Source: an uncultured Candidatus Saccharibacteria bacterium (GTDB lineage Bacteria; Patescibacteriota; Minisyncoccia; Phycocordibacterales; UBA2100). From it: DNA of 64,000 bases. Below are positions 36,666-60,363 of this stretch, piece by piece. The position numbers and the translations under genes are program-made. The notes under the pieces were generated by a model. That model was given only the letters and a program-made list of their open reading frames with translations, had not been told where the DNA came from and did no database searches. Position 1 is the first letter of the stretch. Each line of letters begins with the position of its first letter. Where the stretch lies: positions 97,108 through 161,107 of the forward strand of contig CAYNRJ010000002.1 in the NCBI GenBank assembly GCA_964399865.1. The letters are read 5' to 3'.

Positions 36666-36740
36666 GCCGCCTTAGCTCAGTTGGTAGAGCAACGCTTTTG
36701 TAAAGCGAAGGTCCCCGGTTCAAGTCCGGGAGGCGGCTCA
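36666..36740 (+). tRNA. tRNA-Thr (anticodon UGU)
   Basis: Hand-folded cloverleaf. Acceptor GCCGCCT/AGGCGGC, D-arm GCTC/GAGC, anticodon loop TTTGTAA (anticodon TGT), T-arm CCCGG-TTCAAGT-CCGGG. CCA is not encoded. Confidence 0.9.
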
Positions 36741-42436: not shown

Positions 42437-43486
42437 TTAATATGAGTACGGGTACTGAGGATTGTACGGATACTGTGGATATTGATTGTAGCCGTTCCAA
42501 TTCTGCGCGTTTACGAACTGAGTCGCGTAGTTATTACTCTCGTTCGATTCGTACACCATGTTGGATGGATCAACAGAGACGCTGAATGATCCACCACCGA
42601 TGCGCACCTGCGTGAATCGAAGAGTGTTCACCATACGTGATCCTGGAGTAAGCGGTGCCTGAGCAGGCGAGTTGTATGTGTAAGCCTGGGACGTTGGAAG
42701 CTGTGCGGTGAAGTAATACATACCCGAGGTTGTACCACCCTTGTTGATGATCTCGAACTGGACTGCTGATGTTTCAGAAGGTGAGATAGGCATGCGATTT
42801 ACGAACGCACCTGAATACTGATCAATGACACCTACTGCAAGTATGCGCACCGCGAGATCAACCGGGGTAATAGGGCGAGGTGATGGCGTAGGGTTTGGTG
42901 TAGGAGTTGGTTGTGGTGTCGGAGTAGGAGTTGGGGTAGGGGTCGCGATTGGAGTAGGGTCGCCGCCGAGGATCATGATAGATGCGCTGTCTTGTGCCTG
43001 GGTTCCCGTTGCGCTTGGAAGGAAGATGACAGAAATAGGCATCGGGACAGAAGTCGCTCCAGTAAGAAGCGCAGTAAGAGAAAGAGTCTTATCTTCCGTC
43101 GCAACTGTGTACGCAGCGCCACAAGGGATCTCGCTCAATGCTCCAGAAGGATTTGGAGAGCGGAACTGGAAACCGTCTACACACTGATAGAGGAAAGCGT
43201 ACGAGCCTTCCATGTCTGTGGTGTGCTCCCATTCAATTTCGAAACTCTCTCCTGAGTTAACAGATTCTGGTGCGATCACTTCAAGAGCGGATTCAGTAGT
43301 GCCCCCAAAGAGGGAACCGAACCACGTGCGAGAGATACGCGCGAGATGGACGAGTCCCCAAATAATAATAACTATAACGATAATAAAGCCCGCGATAGCG
43401 AGAATGTTTGAAAAGAGACTCGACTTTGCTTCCTCTGAATGCTCTACGTGCGCGTGTTCGTGTGACATAGTGTCGGCACAGTACAT
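42437..43486 (-). CDS. type II membrane protein with two extracellular domains (second CARDB-like), a Pro/Thr linker and a Tyr/Pro/Gln-rich C-terminus
   Basis: N-terminal TM segment. (TP)n linker. CARDB signature YESNESNNYAT. C-terminus ...NQYPQYPYNPQYPYSY. Confidence 0.65.
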   Translation of the reverse strand: MYCADTMSHEHAHVEHSEEAKSSLFSNILAIAGFIIVIVIIIWGLVHLARISRTWFGSLFGGTTESALEVIAPESVNSGESFEIEWEHTTDMEGSYAFLYQCVDGFQFRSPNPSGALSEIPCGAAYTVATEDKTLSLTALLTGATSVPMPISVIFLPSATGTQAQDSASIMILGGDPTPIATPTPTPTPTPQPTPTPNPTPSPRPITPVDLAVRILAVGVIDQYSGAFVNRMPISPSETSAVQFEIINKGGTTSGMYYFTAQLPTSQAYTYNSPAQAPLTPGSRMVNTLRFTQVRIGGGSFSVSVDPSNMVYESNESNNYATQFVNAQNWNGYNQYPQYPYNPQYPYSY

Positions 43487-43527
43487 AAATAAACCTCAAA
43501 TGTCAAGTTTTTCCAGAGGTGGATGTA

Positions 43528-43556
43528 TTGACTTTTGCTCATCTTCAGGGTACTAT
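43528..43556 (+). promoter_or_regulatory. near-consensus sigma70 promoter for the sortase gene
   Basis: TTGACT-17 nt-TACTAT. Confidence 0.5.
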
Positions 43557-43569
43557 GTATGGGTACTTT

Positions 43570-44253
43570 ATGGGACCAAATTACGGCAATTTCCATTCAC
43601 GATACTCAAATAAACCGCCTAAGTCGGTGTTTTTTGCTGCTTCTACGGTGATGTTTTTCCTCTCGCTTTCCGTTGCCGACTCGATCGGCCTCGTTCCATA
43701 CTACATTGACGGGACTGCGCCAAAAAGCGTCGCCCTCGAAAATCTTCCAGAGCTCGGTGAGAAAAAGAATGTTGTTGAAGAGACACGAACGGTAGGACCG
43801 ATCGCCCTTCCATCACGTATCGTTATTTCATCGATTGGTCTCGACTTACCCGTCCAAAATCCGGGTACTCGCGATATCGCGGCGCTCGACGCACTCCTTA
43901 AGGCAGGTCCTGCAAGGTACGTTGATTCTGCAAAGCTCGGTGAAAAAGGTAACGTCCTTATTTTCGCTCACAGCTCACACCTTCCTGTCGTACATAACCA
44001 AATGTATAAAGCATTCAATCGTGTGCCCGAGCTTGTCGAAGGAAATGTCATTACTGTGATCGGCACAGACTCTTCTGGAGTGCAGAAATCATATCTCTAT
44101 GTCGTACGCTCGGTTCGTCGAGGAGATGCGCATGAAGAGATCATCGACCTCTCTGCGAAAAGCGGTACTCGTCTCACGCTCGTTACGTGCGATACGCTTA
44201 CCTCAAAATCCACCCGTTGGATCCTCGAAGCCGATTTCGTCGGAGTACTCTAA
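43570..44253 (+). CDS. sortase (transpeptidase). Start uncertain; the ORF-track start at 43519 lies upstream of the promoter.
   Basis: N-terminal positive segment plus TM anchor. Conserved His (IFAHSSH), TLxTC Cys (RLTLVTCDT) and downstream Arg (STRWILEADF). Confidence 0.75.
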   Translation: MGPNYGNFHSRYSNKPPKSVFFAASTVMFFLSLSVADSIGLVPYYIDGTAPKSVALENLPELGEKKNVVEETRTVGPIALPSRIVISSIGLDLPVQNPGTRDIAALDALLKAGPARYVDSAKLGEKGNVLIFAHSSHLPVVHNQMYKAFNRVPELVEGNVITVIGTDSSGVQKSYLYVVRSVRRGDAHEEIIDLSAKSGTRLTLVTCDTLTSKSTRWILEADFVGVL

Positions 44254-49600: not shown

Positions 49601-49884
49601 CAAAAGAAATGAAAAATGAGGAATTGCAGGCCCTGCACGACAATGTTGCTCAGCTACTCACGGAGGGTAGGCAGGCGGATGCCAAGGAATATCTTGAGCA
49701 TCACGTATCGCTCCTTCCAGAAGAGTTGAAAAATGAGATTCTCGGCCTCATGTTTCTAGAGGCAGTAGCCGAAGAGGCGGAGGAACAGCAATCGATAGAG
49801 TCAATGCAAAAAGAAGGGTTGGATGCCATGCAGGCTCTAAAGGCGATACAGAAAGAGCTAGAAAAAAGTGCGCGCGCGTCTTGA
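49597..49884 (+). CDS. small acidic helical protein (partner of the upstream gene; ATGA overlap)
   Basis: 95 aa, acidic. Positional analogue of 45070..45348. Confidence 0.45.
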   Translation: MTKEMKNEELQALHDNVAQLLTEGRQADAKEYLEHHVSLLPEELKNEILGLMFLEAVAEEAEEQQSIESMQKEGLDAMQALKAIQKELEKSARAS

Positions 49885-49912
49885 TTGACAATTTGGGGTT
49901 TTTGTATAGTAA
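49881..49912 (+). promoter_or_regulatory. sigma70-like promoter (TTGACA ... TTTTTGTATAGTAA)
   Basis: TTGATTGACA then TGTATAGT. The same 14-mer TTTTTGTATAGTAA precedes rpmE at 33274. Confidence 0.5.
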
Positions 49913-49987
49913 TTATCGCGGTTCTCACGCGCTGTTTGCGTGAGTGTGCAATAGCAAGCCCTGCGGGGCTAAAGTGGAGACACGGCA

Positions 49988-50662
49988 ATGAAGAACATCA
50001 GCGTAGGGGCGTTCATCCTGAGCGCTCTCATTCATCTGGCGGTCACGCTGTTCGTGATCGTCGCACTCTACGGGACTTTCGAGCTGGACTTCCGAATCTA
50101 TCTCTTCGGTATCAATATTCCTTCGCTCGTCTATCTGGTCCCGCTCGTCTTCCTGTCCTACTTCGCGCAGAGGAAGCTTTCTGAAGCGCGCGGTTTTGGG
50201 CGAGTGCTCGATCTTCTGATCTCGGTCCCGATGCTCATCGCGATTGTGGGGGTCATCCTCCTGTGGCTCGGCATTCCGTCCGTCGAGTCGGTCGCGAACG
50301 AGATCGGTTCGTGGGCGAACCACGTGGTTTCGACCGAACCGACCTCCTACAAGGTCGTCGTGGTCCTTCTCTTCGGCTTGGTGTCGCTGCTCGACGTGCT
50401 CGGGCGTGATATCGGGGGAGTTCGTCTCTCGCGTTCCCGCGTGTTCGGGAAGCGGCTGGACGATTCGATTCGGACCCGCATCGTGCCCCAGTTCGAGATC
50501 GCCGATCAGGGGGAGATCATCGTCGGCGGCGAGGTCATTCACGTGACACTGACCGACGAGCACAAGCGGAGGATTGCCCAGAGGATTGCCGGCACGCCCG
50601 GCCTTCCGAAGCCACCTCCGGTTTCGGCGCCGGCTCATGGTCCGACCACTAGCCCTCCGTAG
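49988..50662 (+). CDS. high-GC polytopic membrane protein with a Pro-rich C-terminus
   Basis: GGAGA ribosome-binding site. At least 4 TM helices. GC3-rich. Confidence 0.55.
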   Translation: MKNISVGAFILSALIHLAVTLFVIVALYGTFELDFRIYLFGINIPSLVYLVPLVFLSYFAQRKLSEARGFGRVLDLLISVPMLIAIVGVILLWLGIPSVESVANEIGSWANHVVSTEPTSYKVVVVLLFGLVSLLDVLGRDIGGVRLSRSRVFGKRLDDSIRTRIVPQFEIADQGEIIVGGEVIHVTLTDEHKRRIAQRIAGTPGLPKPPPVSAPAHGPTTSPP

Positions 50663-50696
50663 GGAAGGCGCGCGTCATCGGGAGCGAACAATCCAT

Positions 50697-50730
50697 CGCG
50701 GCGAGGGAAACCTCGCCGCGTATCTTTTTA
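50697..50730 (+). terminator. rho-independent terminator
   Basis: CGCGGCGAGGG-aaa-CCTCGCCGCG followed by TATCTTTTTA. Confidence 0.75.
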
Positions 50731-50742
50731 ATAAGGTTTGTA

Positions 50743-50770
50743 TTGACAAACGTTGATTTTAATGTACTAT
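50743..50770 (+). promoter_or_regulatory. consensus sigma70 promoter
   Basis: TTGACA-16 nt-TACTAT. Confidence 0.55.
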
Positions 50771-50848
50771 GTTAGCACTGTCGCGCATGATGCGCGAAGA
50801 GTTGTTTGACTTGACCCATGCCCCCAGCGTTGGGGCATAACTGGAGGA

Positions 50849-51145
50849 GTGAAAATGGCAGGAAATGGTAATAAGAAGGCACATGGTGCTCCGATTCCCA
50901 TGGAGTCGCGTACTGGCCAGACCTTTGGCCAGTCCAGCGACGTTGTCGAGGAGCGCATCCGCGTCGTGATCCGCGTCGGTCGCTTCTCGGCGGAGCTCGA
51001 GCCGGATCAGGTTCCTGACCGGCTGGCGGCGCGCATCATTAGCTACCTCAAGGCCGGCATGGCCGGTCCGGAGGAGCCCGCGCAGCTTCCGCCGCCGAAG
51101 ACCCCTGTTCCCAATACGGGCGGTGAACCGCGTGAGGACGAGTAG
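50849..51145 (+). CDS. high-GC small hypothetical protein
   Basis: GGAGGAG-N5-ATG. 98 aa. Confidence 0.45.
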   Translation: MKMAGNGNKKAHGAPIPMESRTGQTFGQSSDVVEERIRVVIRVGRFSAELEPDQVPDRLAARIISYLKAGMAGPEEPAQLPPPKTPVPNTGGEPREDE

Positions 51146-51148
51146 ATC

Positions 51149-51715
51149 ATGACAGCAGGTCATGGCGCATCCGTGCGTATTCCGCCGGGCGACGAACCCC
51201 TCATGAGGCTCGACGATCAGGTCGCAGAGGTGAGCTTTTCGAGGTTCATTGTCAGCGACATCGCGAACGTCGAGATTTCTCCGAAGGCCCGTGCGAAGCT
51301 CGCCACCAGTATGGCGGCTGCGCTGGATCCCGGCACAAGTGGGGCCATCGCCGACCGCGACCTTGCGGCAACAAGGTCGGGCGGAAAGCCCCTCGCATTT
51401 CGCGCTGAAGAGGAGATGAGAAGAATGAGCGGCGGTACTTCGCACACGGAATCCCACCACGAAGAGTCTCATGCCGCGAAGGGCGGGAGGACGAAGTGGA
51501 TCATCGTCTGGGGGATCATCATCCTCGCTGCGTTGGCCGCCCTGTACTTCTTCGCTCCCGGCGTGAAGTCAGGGGTCGATGGGTTCGTCGGCGGCCTCAC
51601 TTCGAACGTCGAGCGGGTCGGTAGTCCAAGTGTGGGGGACACCCCCGGCGTCACACCCTGCGACGCCCAGTGGTATCACTACCCGGACCACACTGCGACC
51701 TACTGGTGCAGGTGA
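51149..51715 (+). CDS. high-GC hypothetical protein with one central TM helix
   Basis: Follows 50849..51145 with a 3-nt gap. TM segment WIIVWGIIILAALAALYFF. Confidence 0.5.
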   Translation: MTAGHGASVRIPPGDEPLMRLDDQVAEVSFSRFIVSDIANVEISPKARAKLATSMAAALDPGTSGAIADRDLAATRSGGKPLAFRAEEEMRRMSGGTSHTESHHEESHAAKGGRTKWIIVWGIIILAALAALYFFAPGVKSGVDGFVGGLTSNVERVGSPSVGDTPGVTPCDAQWYHYPDHTATYWCR

Positions 51716-51779
51716 CAACCGGTGACAAATCTAGATCGGCGGCGAGCTCTGTGCTTGCCGCCGTTTCCTTTTATATATA

Positions 51780-51807
51780 TTGACAAATCACACACAAGTG
51801 ATATAAT
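51780..51807 (+). promoter_or_regulatory. perfect-consensus sigma70 promoter with the inverted repeat ATCAC-N6-GTGAT in the spacer
   Basis: TTGACA-16 nt-TATAAT. A GC hairpin plus T-tract terminator lies just upstream (51736-51775). Confidence 0.6.
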
Positions 51808-51839
51808 TATTAGACATAAGTTCTCCTGTTCTTGTCAGT

Positions 51840-51964
51840 CTGGTTTTGGCGGTTTCCACCTTTGCGTCGCCAAAACCGGGCTGATAAAGCCCATTGATCT
51901 TTAAAAAAGTCAGTGGATTGTGGGCGGCAGAGTGTACGTGTGGAAACCACGTGCACTCTGCCGC
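51840..51964 (+). promoter_or_regulatory. structured ~190-nt 5' leader with two long hairpins (12-bp and 17-bp stems)
   Basis: CTGGTTTTGGCG...CGCCAAAACCGG (51840-51879) and GCGGCAGAGTGTACGTG-tggaaac-CACGTGCACTCTGCCGC (51924-51964). No T-tract follows. Confidence 0.4.
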
Positions 51965-52001
51965 TCGCACACCCGTGCCGGCATAACTTGGGAGCTTACC
52001 A

Positions 52002-52535
52002 ATGAAGAAGTCTGTTGTCTTTGCGGCTATCGCCGCGCTCTGCTTCTCCGCTTCGCTCGCGGCTGCCCAGCCGGCGCCCGTGGATACAACTCCGCCCGGC
52101 GCCGATCCTGCTGCAGTTGTCGTTACTACCACTCCGGGCTGTGTGACCCTCGAGGTCACGCATACTGGGATGGACACGACGCAGCGGACGGCAATCGAGC
52201 GCGAAATGCTGGTGAACGCCATGTTCGCCACGTCCGTGCGCGGTGTCGGCATCACCGCCGACGGCATCCAGGCGTGCAATGGCCTCGGTGTCGAGGTCGT
52301 CGACGGGCCGGACGTTCTCATCTACTCGATGATCCGGCAAGGCGTCGTGACCTTCAGGGTCCCGGCGACCGGCAACTACACCTACGTGTACGCCGGGATG
52401 TGCCTGGGTCCCAACGCCGGCATCTTCTTCGACAACCGCGACAATCTCGTGGTGCTCGAGGGAACCCGGATCTCGGTGGCTCTTTCCGTCAACCCGACGG
52501 TTCCGCCGCCGGCGCCCGGTCAGTGCGACCACTGA
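52002..52535 (+). CDS. high-GC small secreted Cys-containing protein
   Basis: Classic Sec signal peptide MKKSVVFAAIAALCFSASLAAAQP. GGGAG ribosome-binding site. Confidence 0.6.
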   Translation: MKKSVVFAAIAALCFSASLAAAQPAPVDTTPPGADPAAVVVTTTPGCVTLEVTHTGMDTTQRTAIEREMLVNAMFATSVRGVGITADGIQACNGLGVEVVDGPDVLIYSMIRQGVVTFRVPATGNYTYVYAGMCLGPNAGIFFDNRDNLVVLEGTRISVALSVNPTVPPPAPGQCDH

Positions 52536-52684
52536 CGTATTCTCTCGGAAGCGGCAGCAACTTGCTTGCCGCTTCCGGGGACCTTCTTTTTCGTGATTGT
52601 TTGTCTAAGTATTCTGTAGTATAGAGTTCGGAGACAAACCTTCATGAGAAGGTCTTGCCATCGATCCGGAAAGGAGACCGCGCG

Positions 52685-53188
52685 ATGCGTTTGTTCTTAA
52701 CATCCCTTTCGATCTTCGTGCTGGGGACGCTTACCGTTCCGCATGTCGCAAAGGCAGAAACCACTGTGCTCTTCAATCCCTGCGGCGCATTTTGCAATGC
52801 GGAGGAAAGGAGACCAGTTCCGTTTAGCGACGAACTGATCTGTTTCTACATCGAACAAGACGTTCAAGATGGGGTTCCGTTCTTCATTTACCGGAACGGC
52901 GACCTGATCAACAAGCATCCCGATGTGGAGCGGCATCCCGGGGAACCGAAGCCGCTGCATAACCAGATCAAGGCACCGTCGGATCGCTACTGCATCGGTG
53001 CCTGGTACATACGTCAGGCAACTGAGATTGTGGTCTGCAACAGCCACTGGAGCGTGACGTTGTCGCTCGTCGACATTCGTACCTATCTCGCGGCGGGAGA
53101 CAGGGCACCACAAACGCGGCACATTACCCTTTGCCTTATGGCAGCCGGCGAGTGCGTGGAACGGCTGTACGTGCACGGTGTCCAATGA
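52685..53188 (+). CDS. high-GC small secreted Cys-containing protein (start moved to MRLFLTS behind AAGGAG)
   Basis: Signal peptide MRLFLTSLSIFVLGTLTVPHVAKA. 8 Cys. Confidence 0.55.
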   Translation: MRLFLTSLSIFVLGTLTVPHVAKAETTVLFNPCGAFCNAEERRPVPFSDELICFYIEQDVQDGVPFFIYRNGDLINKHPDVERHPGEPKPLHNQIKAPSDRYCIGAWYIRQATEIVVCNSHWSVTLSLVDIRTYLAAGDRAPQTRHITLCLMAAGECVERLYVHGVQ

Positions 53189-53236: not shown

Positions 53237-53265
53237 TTGACTTCTGTCAAGTAATGAAGTATACT
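53237..53265 (+). promoter_or_regulatory. consensus sigma70 promoter. The -35 box lies within the palindrome TTGACTTCTGTCAA.
   Basis: TTGACT-17 nt-TATACT. Confidence 0.55.
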
Positions 53266-53299: not shown

Positions 53300-54454
53300 A
53301 TGATACATAAAAACATATATACTATTCCTGCGGTCGCGGTTATTTTCGCTATTATCGGCGCATGTTTTTCTCCAACTATTGCGAGCGCGCAAAATTTTGC
53401 AACGCAGAACCCGTGTTGCCCAACCGTGAACTATGCGTACAACAAACCAACATCGACTTACACTTATAATAAGCCGACTTCTACGTATACAAACAATCAG
53501 CCGACAGCGACCTATGCGTACAACAAACCAACTGCTACGTATACAACTAACAAGCCTGCAACTTCGTACGCATACAATAAACCAGTCACTTCTTACGCGA
53601 ACAACACACCAGTTACGTCTTATTCGTACAATAAACCTGCTGCAGTTACATACACGACTAATAAGCCTGTAACCGCGTATACCTCCAACAAGCCTGTTAC
53701 TTCTTACGCTTCCAATAAGCCGGTTACGTCCTACGCAACGAATCAACCTGCGCCGGTTTACTACAAGACTCCGACTACCATTGTCACGAAGACCCCTACG
53801 TATGTATATAAACCTATCACGGTTACAAATCCGACATACGTAACTCCAAAGACTGTCGTTGTTACGACACCGAAGCATGTTACGTACACAACTCCTTCCT
53901 ACAACTACAATGTTGACGTTAACGTCGTACGACATGTCACTCAGCCGACGTACACTCAACCAGCTCCGACGTACATCGACAACAGCATCAACGATAGCTA
54001 CAACGACAACAGTGTGACTAACACGTACGTCTCTCACAGCTTCAATAGCGGTAATGCAGTAGTAGATTCTACGATCATCACTCCAATCGTTACGCCTCAT
54101 CAGCCGGTATATCAGCCAATTCAGCCAACGTACTACCCACCAGTTCAGTACAATTATCCATACGTTGCGCTCTCTCAGATCCCTTACACAGGATTTGATC
54201 TTGGCACCATGGGTAACATTCTCTACTGGGCAGGTCTCGTACTCTTCGCTCTCGCTCTTGGATACCTCGCTGTCTACTTCGGATCAGCGCTCATAAACGG
54301 TCGCCGTCCATCGATGTCTCAGATGATAACTTCACCTTTCTCTGGCATACTGTCAGCAAGGGGAAACCAGGCAGCTCGTTCTGCAGGGGATTCCATGTCG
54401 TTCGTTCGCTCTATGAACGGTGAAGCTCCTCGTATTATCATTAGTCGCGCTTAA
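53300..54454 (+). CDS. surface protein paralog 1 of a novel family: signal peptide, 12x nonapeptide Tyr/Thr/Asn/Lys/Pro repeats, C-terminal LSQIPYTGFDLG motif, TM helix and conserved cytoplasmic tail
   Basis: See the finding at 53300..59061. The C-terminus ...DSMSFVRSMNGEAPRIIISRA matches the other two paralogs. Confidence 0.7.
   Translation: MIHKNIYTIPAVAVIFAIIGACFSPTIASAQNFATQNPCCPTVNYAYNKPTSTYTYNKPTSTYTNNQPTATYAYNKPTATYTTNKPATSYAYNKPVTSYANNTPVTSYSYNKPAAVTYTTNKPVTAYTSNKPVTSYASNKPVTSYATNQPAPVYYKTPTTIVTKTPTYVYKPITVTNPTYVTPKTVVVTTPKHVTYTTPSYNYNVDVNVVRHVTQPTYTQPAPTYIDNSINDSYNDNSVTNTYVSHSFNSGNAVVDSTIITPIVTPHQPVYQPIQPTYYPPVQYNYPYVALSQIPYTGFDLGTMGNILYWAGLVLFALALGYLAVYFGSALINGRRPSMSQMITSPFSGILSARGNQAARSAGDSMSFVRSMNGEAPRIIISRA
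53430..53760 (+). repeat. 27-nt-period coding tandem repeat (12 imperfect copies, Y-x-[YT]-N-K-P-x-T-[ST])
   Basis: YAYNKPTST YTYNKPTST YTNNQPTAT YAYNKPTAT YTTNKPATS ... read from the translation. Confidence 0.8.
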
Positions 54455-54464
54455 TCTCTCGTAT

Positions 54465-55916
54465 ATGATCAAAGCTCTCGCAACGACTTCTATTATCACG
54501 TTTATTCTCGCTGCATCCGTCAGCATCCTTTCCATCGCAACCGTTGCGAGTGCTCAGGCTGTAACGACATGTTCGATCTATTCGACAGCGAGCTCAGGTT
54601 CAGGTCAGCCGGTAACGATCTCGTGGAATTCTTCTAACGCTACCTACGCGTTCCTCAATCCAGGGGGAAGCGTTGCAACGAACGGCTCACAAGTTGTGTA
54701 CCCAACTGTCACCACGACTTACACACTTACCGTAAACGGTGCACAGGGTCAGTCTTCTAATTGTCAGGTAACAGTACAGGTCGGCTCAACTTCGGGCTTG
54801 CCTTACTGCTCGATCAGCGCAGGAACGACAAACCTCAATCCGGGTAGCGCAGTAACTCTTACCTGGAACTCTTCCAACGCAAATTCAGCTTCCCTTACGA
54901 ACGTTGGTTCAGTTTCAACTTCTGGATCACAAACAGTGTATCCATGGAATACAACGACTTACATATTGACGGTTAACAATTCTCTAGGTCAGTCCTCGAA
55001 TTGTCAGACAACTGTGTACGTTGGTTCCTCTTCAACACAGGCACCGTCTTGCTGGATAACGATCTCTAACAACAATCAATACAATTACAATCAGCAGGCG
55101 ACTCTCTCGTGGGGCTCAACGAATGCAACATCTGCTTCTATCAACCCAAGCGTTGGATCAGTTTCAACCTCTGGTTCTCAGACCATCTACACATCTGGTA
55201 ATCAGATCTACACGATGACGGTCTACAACGCTCAGGGTCAAAGTGCGACATGCCAGACCTCGAGCTACTACCAGCCGGGCATACTTTCCTGCACCATCAC
55301 CGCAAACCCAGTAAACATTCAGAACGGCAGCTCTTCCTACCTTTCTTGGACATCAACAGGAGCGTCATCCGCGTACCTCAATGATGGTCTCGGAAACGTT
55401 GCTCCAAACGGCTCTCTTACTGTTCGTCCAGAGAATTCACGTAACTACATTCTCACAGTGATTGGCTCAAACGGTGCGCAGCAGACATGCACAACGTTCC
55501 TCTCGGTCTCAGGTTCATACCTTCCTCTCAATCAGATCCCTTACACAGGATTTGATTTGGGTCCGATAGGGAACACGATGTACTGGTTTGCGCTCGCACT
55601 CTTTGCGGTCGCTGCTGGATATCTCATTGTGTACTTCATGCCACTTAGTCGCATGCGCTCAACTCGTTCTAGCGTTCACGCTGAGCACGTACACGAGGCG
55701 ACGATCATTTCAGAAAGAGTTACAGTTCCTGCAATCTTTTCTAACAAGGAACCAAAATTCTCTACTGAAGTTCGTGCATATGTTGAGGCGCCAGAAAATC
55801 TTCCAGTACTTCACTCCGAAAGACACGAACAAAAGCACACTGAATTGAAGGATTCTATGTCCTTTGCAGAGAGCAAAGAGGGAGGTGCTCCAAGCATCTT
55901 TATCGGTAGAGCCTAA
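54465..55916 (+). CDS. surface protein paralog 2: signal peptide, five ~80-aa Cys-bracketed Ig-like repeats, LNQIPYTGFDLG motif, TM helix and long conserved tail. The start was moved to the ATG after the upstream stop.
   Basis: Repeats of type C.I.A...IQNGSS.LSW.S.NA.SA ... TY.LTV ... Q.S..CQTTV. C-terminus DSMSFAESKEGGAPSIFIGRA. Confidence 0.7.
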   Translation: MIKALATTSIITFILAASVSILSIATVASAQAVTTCSIYSTASSGSGQPVTISWNSSNATYAFLNPGGSVATNGSQVVYPTVTTTYTLTVNGAQGQSSNCQVTVQVGSTSGLPYCSISAGTTNLNPGSAVTLTWNSSNANSASLTNVGSVSTSGSQTVYPWNTTTYILTVNNSLGQSSNCQTTVYVGSSSTQAPSCWITISNNNQYNYNQQATLSWGSTNATSASINPSVGSVSTSGSQTIYTSGNQIYTMTVYNAQGQSATCQTSSYYQPGILSCTITANPVNIQNGSSSYLSWTSTGASSAYLNDGLGNVAPNGSLTVRPENSRNYILTVIGSNGAQQTCTTFLSVSGSYLPLNQIPYTGFDLGPIGNTMYWFALALFAVAAGYLIVYFMPLSRMRSTRSSVHAEHVHEATIISERVTVPAIFSNKEPKFSTEVRAYVEAPENLPVLHSERHEQKHTELKDSMSFAESKEGGAPSIFIGRA

Positions 55917-55932
55917 TTTCAAGGAAACCCAA

Positions 55933-55962
55933 AAGACCGCTCAGTAGAGCGGTTTTTTGTTG
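55933..55962 (+). terminator. rho-independent terminator
   Basis: GACCGCTC-agta-GAGCGGTC-like stem followed by TTTTTTGTTG. Confidence 0.65.
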
Positions 55963-55974
55963 ATTTAGCTGCTA

Positions 55975-56003
55975 TTGACAAGGGGGTATAAAGCTGGTAA
56001 TAT
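55975..56003 (+). promoter_or_regulatory. consensus sigma70 promoter
   Basis: TTGACA-17 nt-TAATAT. Confidence 0.55.
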
Positions 56004-56100
56004 CTGCCATTGGAGTGCGCCTTGAAAAGCGTACACACGACTTTCCGGGACTCATCCGAGATTCCGGCACTGATCTCTAACTTGAAGAAGGAATGCTGAA

Positions 56101-56625
56101 ATGAACATTCGTCTTATTGCAGTCGTCGTAGCCTTGTTGCTCGGTGTAGGGCTTTCATCGCCCGCCAACGCGCAGGCTGGTTGTGCACTGACTGACAATG
56201 CGTGCCAGGCAGCGCAAGCTGCTGCGGCGCGACCGGATTACAACGGGCCGCTGGCTCCCACTACTGAGCCGATGGTCTGCCTCTTCGTCGTCGCGTATGC
56301 GCCAACTGAGCTCGTCCTCTACGACGGGCCCTATCGGCGAAATCCCGGCGATGAACGCGTAATCCTGACCTGGCGTGTGCAGGCTGGTCACTGGAGTCCC
56401 TGGGCCAGGGATCCGTCTCTCTGGGCGCGGACAATTTGCATCCAGGAGCGGCTTCTGGCCGGGCGGAACACGGTTACGCTCTGCAATGGGCTGGTCGTGA
56501 ACCAAGGCTACCACTCGGAGTGGACCCGCGATCAGATCGCGTATCTCCTCCAGGTCCGAAGCCTCCCAGCCAGCGATCCTGCCAGTCTCCTCGGGACCGC
56601 ACGCAGCGCTGTCTACGGCCTCTAG
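56101..56625 (+). CDS. high-GC small secreted Cys-containing protein
   Basis: Signal peptide MNIRLIAVVVALLLGVGLSSPANAQA. A 10-bp GC hairpin follows the stop (56631-56668). Confidence 0.6.
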   Translation: MNIRLIAVVVALLLGVGLSSPANAQAGCALTDNACQAAQAAAARPDYNGPLAPTTEPMVCLFVVAYAPTELVLYDGPYRRNPGDERVILTWRVQAGHWSPWARDPSLWARTICIQERLLAGRNTVTLCNGLVVNQGYHSEWTRDQIAYLLQVRSLPASDPASLLGTARSAVYGL

Positions 56626-56713
56626 GGGCCTTCGCGAAGGCGGACAAGACCTCTTCGGTCCCCGCCTTCGCAACAACCTTCTATGAATCTTCAGTTAAGT
56701 TAAGGAATAATTT

Positions 56714-56771
56714 GGATGTCAACGGCGAAGAAGGATTCGCTTTTGACATCCGGAGAGATCCGGTATAAGTA
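56714..56771 (+). promoter_or_regulatory. sigma70 promoter with a flanking operator-like inverted repeat GGATGTCAA-N20-TTGACATCC
   Basis: The -35 TTGACA is at 56743. TATAAG/TAAGTA -10 elements lie 15-17 nt downstream. A small palindrome CCGGAGAGATCCGG sits in the spacer. Confidence 0.5.
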
Positions 56772-56802
56772 TGCATTATAAATTAGTAGATAAACCTCAT
56801 TT

Positions 56803-59061
56803 ATGAACTCATTAGTCACGCGAAAATCTGTCTTGATAAGTATTGTCGCAATTCTTACCTTCGCGGCTGGTCTTACCATTACTGTATCTTCACCCATCGG
56901 TGAAGGTTTCAGTGTTTCAATAAATTCTGCTCTCGCGTTCGGTAACTCGGGCGACGGCGGTTGTTGCGGTACTGATGAGCCTGATCAACCTGATTACGAT
57001 CCGCCATCTTATGATCCGCCGGACTACCCTGATTACGATCCGCCACCTTCTCATCCAAAGCCTCACTGTTCAGCGTACATCAATCCCGACCAGGTAAATT
57101 ATGGCGGTAGCGCTACTCTTACGTGGACCTCTGCAAATGCTACGTCTGCAACAGTAACGGATTTCGGTAGTGAGCCAGTAAACGGTTCCAAAGCCCTCTC
57201 CAACATCACTGCGAATAAGACCTACTACGTAACTGTCTATGGACCAGGTGGTTCTGCGACATGTTCAGATACGGTCAAAGTGATCAAGCCAATGCCGGTC
57301 TGTACGATCAACGCTAACCCTTCTACGATTCAGAACGGAGGTTCCTCTACACTCACATGGACCTCTTCGAATGCAACATCTGCATCGATCAATCAGGGTA
57401 TCGGCGGCGTATCTGTAAATGGTAACCGCTCTGTCTCTCCGACAGGCACAAAAACGTACACTCTTACGGTGACTGGTCCTGGTGGTACTGCAAACTGCCA
57501 AACGACTATTATCGTTCAGAATCAGCTTCCTAGCTGTACATTCAACATTAATCCAAACTCTGTGCAGTACGGTGGTAATGCCACAGCTACATGGACATCT
57601 CAGAACGCTACGTCCGCTACTATCAACCAGGGTGTCGGCTCAGTCGCGCTCAATGGTTCGTACACAGCTTCTAACTTAACCTCTACAAAGACGTACATCA
57701 TGACCGTCACTGGTCCTGGTGGCAGCGCAACTTGTCAGGACACAGTAACTGTCCAACAGCAATCTGCTCCTAGCTGTACGATCACTGTAAATCCTCACTC
57801 AGTACAAATGGGTGGTAGCGTGAGCATCGTTTGGTCTTCAAACAACGCTACGTCAGCTACACTTACAGATTTCGGTAGTGAGCCGGTTAACGGATCACGC
57901 TCAGTGTCCAACATAAATTCGAACAAGACGTATGTTTTGACAGTCACAGGCCCAGGTGGAACTGCGACATGTCAGGACTCAGTCGTCGTTCAGGAGTCAC
58001 CAGCTCCGTACTGTACGATCAGTGCAAATCCGTCATCGATACAATACGGCGGTTCCTCGACTCTCACGTGGTCTTCAAACAATGCAACGTCAGCAGTCAT
58101 TAATCACAGTATCGGTTCAGTTGGTGTAAATGGCTCGTACGTCGTTTCGAACATCTACTCGACAAAGACGTACATCATGACCGTCTACAACGCGCAGGGT
58201 CAGAGCGCGAACTGCCAGACAACGATCTACGTCAACGAAATTCAATCGAATCCATCTTGTACGATCAATGCAAATCCTAACTCTATCCAACAGGGTGGTT
58301 CTTCTTACCTCACTTGGTCATCTTCGAACGCCATCTCTGCCAACCTCTCGACTATCGGTTCTGTCGGGGTGAATGGAAGCCAGACTGTGTATCCGTACAA
58401 CACGACAACATACGTGCTCACGGTATACGGACAGAATGGTCAAAGCGCACAGTGTCAGACGACTGTGAACATCGGTGTTGTATACAACAACCCACCAAGC
58501 TGCTGGATCTCGATCTCAAACAATAACCAGTACGACTACAATAACAGCCAGGCGACCCTCTCATGGGGTTCCTCTAACGCGACAAGCGCGTATATCAATC
58601 CGAACGTCGGTTCTGTCTCAACGTACGGAACACGCGTAGTCTATGTCTCTGGCTATCAGGTCTACACAATGACCGTCTACAACGCGCAGGGTCAGAGTGC
58701 GACATGTCAGACACAGACAACTCAGATCCCTCCGTACGTAGCTCTCACTCAGATCCCTTACACAGGTATTGATCTTGGTGGTGCAGGTACGATGCTCTAC
58801 TACTTCGCGATCCTCGCGTTTACAGTAGCCGCCGCGTATCTCGCTATCTACTACGTTCCAGCGTTTGCAGGTATCAAAGCCCGCATCCCAGTTGAAACGA
58901 TGGAAGCTCCGATGATATTCGCTCGATCAGTTGCAGCCGCAGTTCCGTTCGTTCACACAGCTACTCGTCCGAACGTACCAGGAAGTTCATTCAAAGATGC
59001 GATGACATTCGCTCGCTCTGAGAATGGAAGTGCGCCTCGCATCGTGATCCAGAGAAATTAA
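56803..59061 (+). CDS. surface protein paralog 3 (752 aa): signal peptide, Pro/Asp/Tyr-rich segment, eight Cys-bracketed ~80-aa repeats, LTQIPYTGIDLG motif, TM helix and conserved tail
   Basis: C-terminus DAMTFARSENGSAPRIVIQRN. Repeats CTI.ANPS.IQ.GGSSTLTW.S.NATSA ... TY.LTV.GPGG.A.CQ. Confidence 0.75.
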   Translation: MNSLVTRKSVLISIVAILTFAAGLTITVSSPIGEGFSVSINSALAFGNSGDGGCCGTDEPDQPDYDPPSYDPPDYPDYDPPPSHPKPHCSAYINPDQVNYGGSATLTWTSANATSATVTDFGSEPVNGSKALSNITANKTYYVTVYGPGGSATCSDTVKVIKPMPVCTINANPSTIQNGGSSTLTWTSSNATSASINQGIGGVSVNGNRSVSPTGTKTYTLTVTGPGGTANCQTTIIVQNQLPSCTFNINPNSVQYGGNATATWTSQNATSATINQGVGSVALNGSYTASNLTSTKTYIMTVTGPGGSATCQDTVTVQQQSAPSCTITVNPHSVQMGGSVSIVWSSNNATSATLTDFGSEPVNGSRSVSNINSNKTYVLTVTGPGGTATCQDSVVVQESPAPYCTISANPSSIQYGGSSTLTWSSNNATSAVINHSIGSVGVNGSYVVSNIYSTKTYIMTVYNAQGQSANCQTTIYVNEIQSNPSCTINANPNSIQQGGSSYLTWSSSNAISANLSTIGSVGVNGSQTVYPYNTTTYVLTVYGQNGQSAQCQTTVNIGVVYNNPPSCWISISNNNQYDYNNSQATLSWGSSNATSAYINPNVGSVSTYGTRVVYVSGYQVYTMTVYNAQGQSATCQTQTTQIPPYVALTQIPYTGIDLGGAGTMLYYFAILAFTVAAAYLAIYYVPAFAGIKARIPVETMEAPMIFARSVAAAVPFVHTATRPNVPGSSFKDAMTFARSENGSAPRIVIQRN

Positions 59062-59083
59062 TTCTACAGATCCAAGAATTAGC

Positions 59084-59115
59084 AAAATCGCCCCGGGAGG
59101 GGCGATTTTGTTTTA
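59084..59115. terminator. bidirectional rho-independent terminator between convergent genes
   Basis: AAAATCGCCCC-ggga-GGGGCGATTTT followed by GTTTTAT. Confidence 0.85.
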
Positions 59116-60363
59116 TAAGCGAGATGCTATTTCTTCCTGCAACTTTGCGATAGCTTCGCCGAGAGCGAGCGCTCCTACTTTTCCTTTGTCACGGCTTTCG
59201 AGAGAGACAGTTTTCTTTGCTACCTCGTCATCACCGACTACGAGAAGATACGGGATCTTTTCAGTCTTTGCAGTGCGGATCTTCTTACCCAAAGATTCGT
59301 TTGTGTAATCTATTTCTGCGCGAATGCCAGCCGAACGAAATAGGTCAAAAGCTTCTTTTGCATATTCCATGTGTTTATCGGAAATCGGAACAATCTTTGC
59401 TTGGATAGGAGAGAGCCAGAGAGGGAAGGCACCGGCATATTTTTCGATGAGGAATGCCATGATGCGTTCGATAGCTCCAATTGAAGAGCGGTGAATGACG
59501 AACGCGCGTTTCTTTGTGCCATCAGCGGCTGCATACGTAATATCGAAACGATCTGGCATGCAGAAGTCATACTGAACAGTGAATGCGGTGTCCTCTTTTC
59601 CGTTCACGTTCTTCATTTGTATGTCTATCTTTGGACCATAGAAAGCGGCCTCATCTTTTGCTTCTTCGAATGTGCTGCCGCGGGACTCAAGATGCTTTCG
59701 TAGTAGGTCTTCGCTTTTCTCCCATGCAGCATCATTTTTGTAGTACTTCTCGGTATTTGCGCGATCACCAAGTGAGAGGCGATATCGGTAATCGGTCCCT
59801 AGCTTTAGTCCAAAGACCCCGGCGACGTATTCAATAAGGTCGAGCGCCTTACCTACCTCCTCCACGGCCTGTTCTTCGGAGGCGCACACAATGTGTGCGT
59901 CAGCGAGGCAGAATGTGCGGACTCTTTGAAGGCCCATCAGTTCTCCCGATTGTTCGTATCGGTAGAGTTGCGCCAGCTCTGCAATTCTCATCGGAAGTTC
60001 GCGATAGCTGCGAGGCCTTGAAAGGAAAAGTTCAAAATGATGAGGGCACGTCATCGGGCGGAGCATGAACTCTTCGTCATCAATAACGATCGGCGCATAC
60101 ATGGAATCTTTGTAGTGTGGGTAGTGACCGCTCTTCTTATAGAGATCAAGTTTTGCGATGTCAGGGGTTTTGACGTGGAGGTATCCCCGGCGGATTTCTT
60201 CGTCCACTATGAAGCGTTCAAGTTCACGGCGGATTGTCGCACCCTTTGGCGTAAAGAGGGGAAGGCCTTTGCCGACGGTGTCGGAAAAGGTAAAGAGGTC
60301 GAGTTCGCGACCGAGTTTCTTATGGTCGCGGTCTTTAAGGCTATCTTGTGCTTCGTCTGCCAT
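59113..60363 (-). CDS. thrS: threonyl-tRNA synthetase, short form (class II catalytic core plus anticodon-binding domain; no N-terminal TGS/editing domains)
   Basis: Class II motifs (FRLRPMTCPHH, QYDFCMPDRF) and a C-terminal anticodon-binding fold. Only 416 aa. Confidence 0.85.
   Translation of the reverse strand: MADEAQDSLKDRDHKKLGRELDLFTFSDTVGKGLPLFTPKGATIRRELERFIVDEEIRRGYLHVKTPDIAKLDLYKKSGHYPHYKDSMYAPIVIDDEEFMLRPMTCPHHFELFLSRPRSYRELPMRIAELAQLYRYEQSGELMGLQRVRTFCLADAHIVCASEEQAVEEVGKALDLIEYVAGVFGLKLGTDYRYRLSLGDRANTEKYYKNDAAWEKSEDLLRKHLESRGSTFEEAKDEAAFYGPKIDIQMKNVNGKEDTAFTVQYDFCMPDRFDITYAAADGTKKRAFVIHRSSIGAIERIMAFLIEKYAGAFPLWLSPIQAKIVPISDKHMEYAKEAFDLFRSAGIRAEIDYTNESLGKKIRTAKTEKIPYLLVVGDDEVAKKTVSLESRDKGKVGALALGEAIAKLQEEIASRL

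What the first reader, a model, noticed from the sequence alone, without database searches (positions are those of the whole stretch)
53300..59061. Three paralogous surface proteins with a conserved Q-IPYTG-[FI]-DLG signal, TM helix and a long conserved cytoplasmic tail: candidate novel sortase-type sorting signal
All three proteins (384, 484 and 752 aa) have signal peptides and divergent repeat-built ectodomains. They share an almost invariant block L-[STN]-Q-I-P-Y-T-G-[FI]-D-L-G, then about 22 hydrophobic residues, then a 50-100-aa tail ending in the shared motif D-[SA]-M-[ST]-F-[AV]-x-S-x-x-G-x-A-P-x-I-x-I-x-R-[AN]. IPxTG resembles pilin-type sortase signals (IPQTG, IPNTG) and a sortase gene lies 9 kb upstream. 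However, canonical sorting signals have only a 5-10-residue basic tail. The long conserved tail suggests a second function, such as a cytoplasmic recognition or regulatory domain, or a different C-terminal processing system.
Basis: partly seen in the sequence, partly recalled or inferred. Interest (0 to 1): 0.75.

Follow-up and report, generated by a model that had tools for sequence, protein, structure and literature searches.

The report
Sortase-type anchor signal with long tail
Three neighbouring surface-protein genes of an ultrasmall (Patescibacteria, Kaiserbacteria-like) bacterium end in an invariant L-x-Q-I-P-Y-T-G motif, a membrane helix and an unusually long conserved cytoplasmic tail. 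This looks like an undescribed, lineage-wide variant of the sortase cell-wall sorting signal, but no cleavage has been shown.

Summary
Three + strand genes (53300-54454, 54465-55916, 56803-59061) encode proteins with an N-terminal signal peptide. Each ends in L[STN]QIPYTG[FI]DLG, a 23-residue hydrophobic helix and a 56-91-aa tail closing with D[SA]M[ST]F..S..G.AP.I.I.R.-COOH.

The module has no Pfam or NCBIfam model and no literature hit. It is nevertheless widespread in Paceibacteria/Kaiserbacteria: 826 representative clusters, and 240 confirmed sites in species genomes. Q-IPYTG is invariant.

Three lines of evidence favour a sortase signal:
- A divergent sortase with a conserved His-Cys-Arg triad lies upstream on the same strand in 32 of 33 related loci that have more than 8 kb of upstream sequence.
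- Relatives carry the same motif in the canonical format of motif, helix and short basic tail.
- The module is joined to several unrelated ectodomains.

The tail is predicted to be a disordered linker ending in a beta-hairpin, and 207 of 212 tails stop exactly one residue after the final Arg. Other lineages substitute different conserved tails, including a roughly 230-aa domain.

My best reading is a sortase substrate whose cytoplasmic extension docks an unknown partner. An uncleaved bitopic membrane protein remains a serious rival. I rate it a new variant of a known kind. All evidence is computational.

The parts
53300..54454 (+). Gene 1, 384 aa: signal peptide, 12 x 9-aa Y-x-x-N-K-P repeats (T/Y/P/N-rich ectodomain), IPYTG module, 56-aa tail
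   Evidence: called as a 384-aa gene in an independent assembly
54465..55916 (+). Gene 2, 483 aa from ATG 54465 (ORF opens at GTG 54420): signal peptide, four ~80-aa Cys-bracketed Ig-like repeats, IPYTG module, 91-aa tail
56803..59061 (+). Gene 3, 752 aa: N-terminal hydrophobic segment, Pro/Asp-rich spacer, ~80-aa Cys-bracketed Ig-like repeats (5 anchor matches; Cys spacing suggests ~7), IPYTG module, 67-aa tail
   Evidence: (weak PDB hit to an Ig-like domain protein, 9ncf_S, E=1.9e-4)
54170..54205 (+). Motif block LSQIPYTGFDLG of gene 1 (putative sortase site between T and G)
55527..55562 (+). Motif block LNQIPYTGFDLG of gene 2
58744..58779 (+). Motif block LTQIPYTGIDLG of gene 3
54215..54283 (+). 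Transmembrane helix of gene 1 (NILYWAGLVLFALALGYLAVYFG); carries family-conserved Y, W, F, A, Y-L, Y
55572..55640 (+). Transmembrane helix of gene 2
58789..58857 (+). Transmembrane helix of gene 3 (AF2 helix 17-42 of the module, pLDDT 94-97)
54284..54451 (+). Cytoplasmic tail of gene 1 (56 aa); terminal motif DSMSFVRSMNGEAPRIIISRA at 54389-54451
55641..55913 (+). Cytoplasmic tail of gene 2 (91 aa); inner motif VPAIFSN at 55725-55745; terminal motif DSMSFAESKEGGAPSIFIGRA at 55851-55913
58858..59058 (+). Cytoplasmic tail of gene 3 (67 aa); inner motif APMIFAR at 58906-58926 (AF2 short helix); terminal motif DAMTFARSENGSAPRIVIQRN at 58996-59058 (AF2 beta-hairpin)
43519..44253 (+). Sortase (244 aa from GTG; a 232-aa form from the internal Met is on record): N-terminal TM helix, H151, TLVTC C224, R233
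42437..43486 (-). CARDB-domain membrane protein, divergent from the sortase. The pair is conserved in 37 related loci. It has no C-terminal sorting signal
53237..53265 (+). Promoter-like site upstream of gene 1 (10 of 12 matches). Such sites are not more frequent than in shuffles
55930..55959 (+). Terminator-like hairpin just after gene 2. Genes 1 and 2 (10-nt gap) probably form one transcription unit
59083..59110 (.). Hairpin between the convergent stops of gene 3 (59061) and thrS (59113)

Best explanation
The three proteins are substrates of the sortase encoded at 43519-44253. The proposed pathway, all of it inferred, is as follows.
1. The proteins are exported by the Sec pathway through their N-terminal signal peptides and halted in the membrane by the conserved helix.
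2. The sortase cleaves between T and G of the invariant L-x-Q-I-P-Y-T-G motif and transfers the ectodomain to peptidoglycan. The ectodomain is either Ig-like repeats or a T/Y/P/N-rich stalk.
3. This would leave a 90-125-aa membrane stub: G-[FI]-D-L-G, the helix and the tail.

The new feature is the tail: a disordered Ala/Val/Pro/Ser-rich linker carrying a strictly C-terminal amphipathic beta-hairpin, T.D[SAT]M.[IVFL].[HR]S..G.[AM]PRIVI.R.-COOH. In two of the three window proteins it also carries a short helical [AT]P.[MIL]F[AS] motif. I infer that this hairpin is a docking peptide for an unidentified cytoplasmic partner. It could act before cleavage, by positioning or gating the precursor. It could also act after cleavage, either as a reporter of surface assembly, like the C-peptide sensed in Streptococcus gordonii, or as a handle for clearing the stub.

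Shown: sequence architecture, conservation, distribution and gene linkage. Inferred: export, cleavage, wall anchoring and tail function.
For: 1. Invariance: Q-IPYTG is present in 86/86 first hits and in 121/121 further representatives found by HMM without a word index. Across 289 unique modules, L-3 and Q-1 are at 99%, I at 98%, and P, Y, T and G at 100%. Codons at the motif vary freely between genomes, so selection acts on the protein.
2. Canonical versions exist in the same clade, with the same motif, a hydrophobic segment, a short basic tail and then the stop. Examples: L072|6367-7320 ...SLTQLPYTG...AYRLRLVG, two genes downstream of the sortase; L070|5805-6884; P0077; P0080; P0082; P0084; P0069; P0079.
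3. Modular use: the module occurs on Ig-like repeats, 9-aa repeats, a dockerin-containing ectodomain, GGD/PPP-rich proteins and a 181-aa protein.
4. Sortase linkage: tblastn finds a sortase on the same strand in 46/80 loci, 0.6-8.6 kb from the IPYTG gene, and in 32/33 loci with more than 8 kb of upstream sequence.
5. The enzyme looks active: H151, C224 and R233 are conserved in at least 95% of the 37 full-length homologues from these loci (invariant in a 21-sequence subset). The corresponding His, Cys and Arg are invariant in a second set of 37 database homologues. The AF2 model matches sortase structures (Foldseek E about 1e-7).
6. No other LPXTG-type signal was found in about 1.4 Mb of loci plus the window, and none in the window itself.
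7. Topology: 103/109 full-length homologues have an N-terminal hydrophobic segment, and basic residues follow the helix.
8. Tail: 207/212 class-A tails end exactly one residue after the final Arg. AF2 predicts a terminal hairpin at 90-95/104-109 and a short helix on APMIFAR. The inner motif is present in 44/221 linkers against 9.8 in shuffles. The tail motif never occurs without IPYTG in the loci.
9. Precedent for a functional post-cleavage stub: the S. gordonii sensor SGO_1180 senses the C-peptide left by sortase A (PMC11326707).
Against: - There is no experimental evidence of cleavage in any Patescibacterium.
- The conservation runs well past the putative cut site, through FDFG.xGN..YW and the helix (Y, W, F, A, Y-L, Y-Y). 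This is unusual for LPXTG signals and typical of a membrane protein that stays intact. The searches were seeded with the whole module, which inflates this.
- Canonical signals have tails of a few residues. Here the tails are 56-91 aa, and up to about 230 aa with a folded-looking domain in class D. That argues for a functional bitopic protein.
- The sortase linkage lies inside a generally conserved gene order: gyrB, CARDB gene, sortase, a variable island, the IPYTG gene, thrS and dnaE. It is therefore not independent in each locus. One Kaiserbacteria contig has the IPYTG gene next to thrS with pilin genes and no sortase within 10 kb.
- Pfam Gram_pos_anchor and NCBIfam LPXTG-anchor models do not match.
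- The sortase cannot be placed in a characterised class, so its specificity cannot be predicted.
- The tail's partner is unknown.
Confidence: 0.58

Rival explanations
1. These are uncleaved type I (bitopic) membrane proteins. On this view the IPYTGFDLG block and the conserved helix form a juxtamembrane/intramembrane interaction module, for oligomerisation or for binding a membrane partner. The tail would couple the Ig-like surface domain to a cytoplasmic partner. The sortase nearby would be there only through conserved gene order.
For: - Conservation continues through the segment after T-G and through the helix.
- The tails are long, conserved and come in several alternative classes, including a roughly 230-aa domain family of its own with more than 162 hits.
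- P0309 keeps the helix and the class-D tail but has no IPYTG and no ectodomain, showing that the C-terminal part can stand alone.
- The IPYTG gene stays next to thrS even where no sortase is within 10 kb.
- The whole region is syntenic.
Against: - It does not explain why an xPxTG motif, placed about 12 residues before the helix, is 100% invariant while everything around it drifts.
- It does not explain why the same motif appears with canonical short basic tails.
- It does not explain why no other candidate substrate for the conserved, catalytically intact sortase was found in these loci.
Confidence: 0.25
2. The sortase polymerises these Ig-like repeat proteins into covalent pili, a class C-like function as suggested by IPxTG, rather than only anchoring monomers to the wall.
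For: - Ile at the first position is seen in pilin signals such as IPQTG and IPNTG (established knowledge, not tested here).
- The ectodomains are tandem Ig-like domains.
- There are up to three tandem paralogues per locus, reminiscent of major and minor pilins.
Against: - There is only one sortase per locus, whereas pilus loci usually carry a dedicated pilin sortase in addition to a housekeeping one.
- The sortase shows no preferential match to class C.
- The gene 2 ectodomain contains a single Lys, and I identified no YPK-type pilin motif, though I did not search for one systematically.
- 61 of the 80 loci where a module-bearing gene was found (79 related loci plus the window) have a single IPYTG gene.
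Confidence: 0.07
3. The module is a sorting signal for a different, non-sortase processing enzyme, analogous to exosortase, archaeosortase, rhombosortase or myxosortase systems.
For: A conserved motif, a sequence-conserved helix and a C-terminal location resemble PEP-CTERM, PGF-CTERM, GlyGly-CTERM or MYXO-CTERM domains more than typical LPXTG signals (background from the abstracts listed).
Against: - No polytopic membrane protease or transpeptidase is conserved in the neighbourhood. The recurrent neighbours are a CARDB protein, a Gly-rich secreted protein, a YkuD L,D-transpeptidase, a PaaX-like regulator and housekeeping genes.
- None of the NCBIfam sorting-domain models match.
- Those systems also have short tails, so they would not explain the tail either.
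Confidence: 0.05

Closest known systems
LPXTG cell-wall sorting signal with housekeeping sortase (class A, Staphylococcus aureus paradigm)
   Same: N-terminal signal peptide. xPxTG motif about 10-12 residues before a hydrophobic segment. Basic residues after the helix. A membrane-anchored sortase with a His-Cys-Arg triad and the TLxTC motif encoded nearby.
   Different: The motif is an eight-residue invariant L-x-Q-I-P-Y-T-G with a fixed Tyr at the 'X' position. The residues after the cut site and the helix are conserved. The tail is 56-91 aa here and up to about 230 aa elsewhere, instead of about 5-10 basic residues. Pfam and NCBIfam anchor models do not match.
Class E sortases with LAxTG substrates (Actinobacteria)
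   Same: Class E is the best, though very weak, NCBIfam match of the sortase (27.8 bits), and Thermobifida and Streptomyces SrtE are among the top fold matches. It is a single housekeeping-type enzyme in an organism without SrtA.
   Different: The score is far below the family cut-off of 160 bits. The motif has Pro, not Ala, at position 2. Matches to classes A, C and D are equally good.
Pilin sorting signals IPQTG/IPNTG with class C sortases
   Same: Ile-Pro-x-Thr-Gly core, Ig-like ectodomains and tandem paralogues.
   Different: No second sortase, no class C assignment, no pilin motif identified, and long tails.
C-peptide sensing after sortase A processing in Streptococcus gordonii (SGO_1180 two-component system)
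   Same: It gives a function to the membrane stub left by sortase, which is the role I infer for the conserved stub here (PMC11326707).
   Different: There the stub is an ordinary short sorting-signal remnant sensed within the membrane. Here it carries a dedicated cytoplasmic linker and a C-terminal hairpin. No sensor has been identified.
PEP-CTERM/exosortase, PGF-CTERM/archaeosortase, GlyGly-CTERM/rhombosortase, MYXO-CTERM/myxosortase
   Same: Lineage-specific tripartite C-terminal domains with a signature motif and a conserved helix, attached to varied proteins (abstracts).
   Different: Those are cut by polytopic membrane enzymes and have short tails. No such enzyme is linked here, and no model matches.

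Membership tests
Sortase substrate (cell-wall sorting signal) | N-terminal signal peptide for Sec export | tested here: met
   All three window proteins and 103/109 full-length homologues start with a hydrophobic segment. The AxA-type sites ASA-Q and ASA-Q are visible in genes 1 and 2. No dedicated signal-peptide predictor was available.
Sortase substrate (cell-wall sorting signal) | xPxTG-type pentapeptide shortly before a C-terminal hydrophobic segment | tested here: met
   IPYTG lies 12 residues before a 23-residue hydrophobic helix in all three proteins. It is invariant in 289 unique modules.
Sortase substrate (cell-wall sorting signal) | Short positively charged tail that ends the protein right after the hydrophobic segment | tested here: not met
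   Basic residues follow the helix, but the protein continues for 56, 91 and 67 aa. The canonical form is met only in some relatives.
Sortase substrate (cell-wall sorting signal) | Match to curated anchor models (Pfam Gram_pos_anchor, NCBIfam LPXTG anchor domain) | tested here: not met
   Neither library reports such a model at E<=1 for the whole proteins.
Sortase substrate (cell-wall sorting signal) | Cognate sortase in the genome | tested here: met
   PF04203 sortase at 43519-44253. A homologue lies upstream in 32/33 related loci with more than 8 kb of upstream sequence.
Sortase substrate (cell-wall sorting signal) | Cleavage between Thr and Gly and amide linkage to peptidoglycan | not testable with these tools
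   This needs an enzyme assay or mass spectrometry.
Sortase (enzyme at 43519-44253) | Sortase fold with catalytic His, Cys (TLxTC) and Arg | tested here: met
   PF04203 E=5e-13. H151, C224 and R233 are conserved in at least 95% of 37 homologues. The AF2 model matches sortase structures at E about 1e-7.
Sortase classes A-F | Score above the NCBIfam class cut-off, or a clear nearest class | tested here: not met
   Class E scores 27.8 bits against a cut-off of 160, and class F 18.5 against 166. PDB profile and fold hits to classes A, C, D and E are equally weak, at about 20% identity.
Sortase-assembled pilin | Pilin motif Lys (YPK-like), a dedicated class C sortase with a lid, and several pilin genes with a pilin sortase in one cluster | tested here: inconclusive
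   There is one sortase per locus and no class C assignment. The gene 2 ectodomain has one Lys. I made no systematic search for pilin motifs or a lid.
Exosortase/archaeosortase/rhombosortase-type C-terminal sorting domains | Match to an NCBIfam -CTERM model and a linked polytopic processing enzyme | tested here: not met
   No model matches, and no such enzyme is among the conserved neighbours.

The most novel reading that the evidence does not exclude
The gene may encode two products joined at a sortase site. Cleavage at IPYT|G would release a wall-anchored adhesin and, at the same time, a membrane-tethered cytoplasmic effector: the hairpin-tipped tail, or in other lineages a roughly 230-aa domain. 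Surface-protein assembly would then be hard-wired to a cytoplasmic response, or to positioning at a specific site such as the division apparatus. That would be a built-in outside-to-inside reporting device in ultrasmall episymbiotic bacteria, and a role for sorting-signal remnants that is encoded rather than incidental.
Probability: 0.2. Interest if true: 0.8.

Novelty: new variant of a known kind. Interest (0 to 1): 0.6.

Why it matters
More than half of Candidate Phyla Radiation (Patescibacteria) genomes encode a sortase (PMC6744442). I found no description of their sorting signals or substrates in the searchable literature, and no curated model recognises this one.

If L-x-Q-IPYTG is the recognition site, it would define the surface proteome anchored by this sortase subfamily (913 homologues) across Kaiserbacteria-like lineages. 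It would also give annotators a usable motif.

The conserved cytoplasmic tails are the unexpected part. Textbook sorting signals end a few residues after the membrane helix. A long, selected, strictly C-terminal docking motif implies that the precursor, or the stub left after cleavage, has a cytoplasmic function.

This can be tested directly with a peptide cleavage assay and with metaproteomic data. It also bears on how cells that depend on surface attachment coordinate envelope assembly with the cytoplasm.

Tried and rejected
- Pfam and NCBIfam scans of all three proteins and six neighbours found nothing relevant to the module.
- A literature search for 'IPYTG' returned only unrelated papers. 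Searches on sortase in CPR/Patescibacteria gave only general statements and an unrelated donor-strand pilus system. A search for LPXTG signals with long cytoplasmic extensions found no precedent.
- A single-sequence PDB search of the sortase found nothing. Only the profile search did.
- A PDB sequence search of gene 2 and of the class-D tail found nothing meaningful.
- DNA- or RNA-level constraint at the motif is rejected, because codons vary between genomes.
- A structured RNA in the GC-rich patch is rejected: the only Rfam or tRNA hit in the window is a tRNA-Thr at 36666.
- A dedicated accessory enzyme among conserved neighbours is rejected.
- Single-linkage clustering of ectodomains merged almost everything through the shared Ig-like repeat. 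It is not a useful count of ectodomain types, so I judged diversity from individual sequences instead.
- The inner tail motif [AT]P.[MIL]F resembles the C-terminal peptide of FtsZ. This is from memory only. I could not test it because no ftsZ or ftsA is in the window, so I do not rely on it.

Full report
**What is in the window**

Three + strand genes occupy 53300-59061.
- Gene 1 (53300-54454, 384 aa) has a signal peptide and then twelve 9-residue Y-x-x-N-K-P-x-x-x repeats in a T/Y/P/N-rich ectodomain.
- Gene 2 has an ORF opening at GTG 54420. The first ATG is at 54465, giving 483 aa, which matches independent gene calls in other assemblies.
- Gene 3 (56803-59061) encodes 752 aa.
- Genes 2 and 3 carry Cys-bracketed repeats of about 80 aa: 4 anchor matches in gene 2; 5 in gene 3, where the Cys spacing suggests about 7 repeats. 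The repeats give a weak match to an Ig-like domain protein in the PDB (9ncf_S, E=1.9e-4).
- A small secreted protein gene (56101-56625) lies between genes 2 and 3.
- A promoter-like site precedes gene 1. A terminator-like hairpin follows gene 2, and another hairpin lies between the convergent ends of gene 3 and thrS.

All three proteins end in the same module:
- L[STN]QIPYTG[FI]DLG at 54170-54205, 55527-55562 and 58744-58779;
- a 23-residue hydrophobic helix;
- basic residues, then tails of 56, 91 and 67 aa that close with D[SA]M[ST]F..S..G.AP.I.I.R plus one residue.

IP.TG followed by a hydrophobic stretch occurs nowhere else in the six frames of the window. One correction is needed: gene 1's ectodomain is unrelated to those of genes 2 and 3, so only the C-terminal module is shared by all three.

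**Organism and context**

The neighbouring genes are gyrB, a short thrS, dnaE, ribosomal proteins, pentose-phosphate genes and a 6107-aa giant ORF. Every homologue comes from Patescibacteria, labelled Kaiserbacteria, Paceibacterota, Parcubacteria or Nomurabacteria. The closest loci are L001 (Kaiserbacteria UBA10103), L002 and L003, which carry the same three-gene arrangement.

**How widespread the module is**

- Pfam and NCBIfam have no model for it.
- A profile of the three C-termini found 86 proteins.
- A profile of 32 modules, searched against 1.84 billion cluster representatives, found 826 at E<=1e-3 and 346 at E<=1e-10. In nearly all of the 150 listed, the best-matching stretch reaches the C-terminus.
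- A scan of one genome per species found 240 confirmed sites.
- Q-IPYTG is present in 86/86 and 121/121 of these sequences.

It reads Y-V-S-L-[ST]-Q-I-P-Y-T-G-F-D-F-G-P-x-G-N-A-x-Y-W-x-x-L-x-x-F-A-x-A-x-A-Y-L-x-V-Y-Y-[RK]-G-G. Codons at the motif differ freely between genomes, so the constraint acts on the protein.

**Is it a sortase signal?**

Four observations favour this reading.

1. The same motif appears in the same clade in canonical sorting-signal format: motif, hydrophobic segment, a few basic residues, then the stop. Examples are ...SLTQLPYTGDSDYSQMLMWLSIVMFAGSAAYLLAYRLRLVG (L072, two genes downstream of the sortase) and ...SLTQIPYTGFDLGVVGTIVYVAILTLFVSASAYLGYYYFGRTR (P0077).
2. The module is joined to unrelated ectodomains: Ig-like repeats, 9-aa repeats, a dockerin-containing protein, Gly/Asp- and Pro-rich proteins, and a 181-aa protein.
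3. The sortase is linked. Pfam identifies 43519-44253 as a sortase. Homologues lie upstream on the same strand, 0.6-8.6 kb away, in 46 of 80 related loci, and in 32 of 33 loci with more than 8 kb of upstream sequence.
4. The enzyme looks active. H151, C224 (in TLVTC) and R233 are conserved in at least 95% of 37 full-length homologues from the loci. The corresponding triad is invariant in a second alignment of 37 database homologues. The AF2 model has the sortase fold. No other LPXTG-type signal was found in about 1.4 Mb of loci plus the window.

There are caveats.
- The whole region is syntenic: gyrB, a CARDB-domain gene on the opposite strand, the sortase, a hypervariable island of mostly unique genes, one to three IPYTG genes, then thrS and dnaE on the opposite strand. 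The loci are therefore not independent observations.
- One Kaiserbacteria contig keeps the IPYTG gene beside thrS but has pilin genes and no sortase within 10 kb.
- The sortase fits no curated class. Class E scores 27.8 bits against a cut-off of 160. Profile and fold matches to classes A, C, D and E are all at about 20% identity.
- No alternative processing enzyme is conserved nearby. The recurrent neighbours are a Gly-rich secreted protein, a YkuD L,D-transpeptidase, a membrane protein, a PaaX-like regulator and housekeeping genes.

**The tail**

The tail type found in the window ('class A') is the commonest among relatives, present in 241 of 311 sequences.
- Its terminal motif is T.D[SAT]M.[IVFL].[HR]S..G.[AM]PRIVI.R.
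- 207 of 212 unique tails stop exactly one residue after the Arg.
- The linker between helix and motif has a median length of 55 aa and is Ala/Val/Ser/Pro/Thr-rich.
- AF2 on a 32-sequence alignment gives a confident membrane helix, a short helix on APMIFAR and a terminal beta-hairpin. Mean pLDDT is 72 and the model shows no compact fold.
- The inner motif [AT]P.[MIL]F[AS] is present in genes 2 and 3 and in 44 of 221 linkers, against 9.8 expected from shuffles.
- Within the loci, the terminal motif never occurs without IPYTG.

Other lineages replace this tail, at the same thrS-adjacent gene position, with other conserved tails:
- about 62-aa tails ending ...KVALKID..RG or ...AARNQ...VRS;
- tails truncated after ...IPAIFHSD;
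- a roughly 230-aa class-D tail ending SYS.GVTGAKLALTRAL. Class D is a family of its own with more than 162 hits.

One member, P0309, keeps the helix and the class-D tail but lacks both IPYTG and an ectodomain. It sits in an unrelated context without thrS or a sortase.

The architecture of a flexible linker with a strictly C-terminal conserved peptide suggests a docking motif for a cytoplasmic partner. This is inference; no partner was identified.

**Mechanism proposed**

The pathway I consider most likely is:
1. Sec export.
2. Stop-transfer at the conserved helix.
3. Sortase cleavage between T and G.
4. Attachment of the ectodomain to peptidoglycan.
5. Retention of a 90-125-aa stub whose cytoplasmic hairpin engages a partner.

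The hairpin could act before cleavage, in positioning or gating. It could also act afterwards, in reporting or clearance. The sensing of the sortase C-peptide by SGO_1180 in S. gordonii is a precedent for a functional stub (PMC11326707). I give this reading a probability of about 0.58.

The main rival, at about 0.25, is that the proteins are never cleaved and work as bitopic receptors or adhesins. The conservation beyond the cut site, the conserved helix and the domain-sized tails favour that view. The invariance of xPxTG, the short-tailed relatives and the otherwise substrate-less sortase argue against it. Pilus polymerisation (0.07) and a non-sortase processing enzyme (0.05) are minor rivals.

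**Comparison with known systems and novelty**

The module works like an LPXTG signal, but it fails two membership features: the short terminal tail, and a match to curated anchor models. It should not be filed simply as an LPXTG anchor. I found no paper describing the motif or long-tailed sorting signals. The literature says only that sortases are common in CPR (PMC6744442). I rate it a new variant of a known kind, with interest 0.6. All evidence is computational, and the decisive experiments are straightforward.

Noticed in passing
window 54176-54192, 55533-55549, 58750-58766: The 17 nt CAGATCCCTTACACAGG that encode QIPYTG are identical in all three window paralogues, including the uncommon CCT and ACA codons. 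Paralogues in 19 other loci differ at synonymous sites. This points to local gene conversion or chance, not a general DNA-level constraint.
   Followed up: partly
window 49900-52650: A GC-rich patch (0.59 against about 0.49 elsewhere) carries small + strand ORFs for membrane or secreted proteins (49988-50662, 51149-51715, 52002-52535) and long overlapping antisense ORFs. There is no Rfam or tRNA hit. It may be acquired DNA inside the variable island between the sortase and the IPYTG genes.
   Followed up: partly
window 52655-53188 and 56101-56625: Two small Cys-containing proteins (177 and 174 aa) with signal peptides have no family match. The second sits between IPYTG paralogues 2 and 3, and the same order recurs in three independent assemblies.
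   Followed up: no
window 343-18666: A single 6107-aa ORF on the + strand. I did not analyse it.
   Followed up: no
window 59113-60363 (-): The threonyl-tRNA synthetase here is a short 416-aa form containing only the class II core and the anticodon-binding domain. In related loci the ORFs in the thrS cluster mostly fall into two size groups, roughly 400-450 aa and 575-610 aa.
   Followed up: no
window 47090-49600 and 49597-49884: An 836-aa Lys/Glu-rich protein without a signal peptide is followed by an overlapping 95-aa acidic protein. The small protein's family recurs in the variable island of 11 loci, often after a gene of about 500-770 aa. Function is unknown.
   Followed up: no
loci L063, L065, L073, L078, L080; proteins P0208-P0327: At the same thrS-adjacent gene position there is an alternative 'class D' cytoplasmic tail of about 230 aa, ending SYS.GVTGAKLALTRAL. 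It forms a well-conserved family with more than 162 hits at roughly 46-69% identity to the query, and has no Pfam or PDB match. P0309 has this tail and the helix but no IPYTG motif, in an unrelated genomic context.
   Followed up: partly
window 55725-55745, 58906-58926; 44 of 221 homologous linkers: An inner tail motif [AT]-P-x-[MIL]-F-[AS] is predicted to be helical. From memory, it resembles the conserved C-terminal peptide of FtsZ that binds FtsA and other partners. I could not test this.
   Followed up: partly
loci L006, L009, L013, L023, L028, L042, L072 (gene just upstream of the IPYTG gene, - strand): A secreted YkuD-type L,D-transpeptidase is the immediate neighbour of the IPYTG gene in seven loci. 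A Gly-rich secreted repeat protein follows the sortase in 15 loci. Neither is present in the window.
   Followed up: partly
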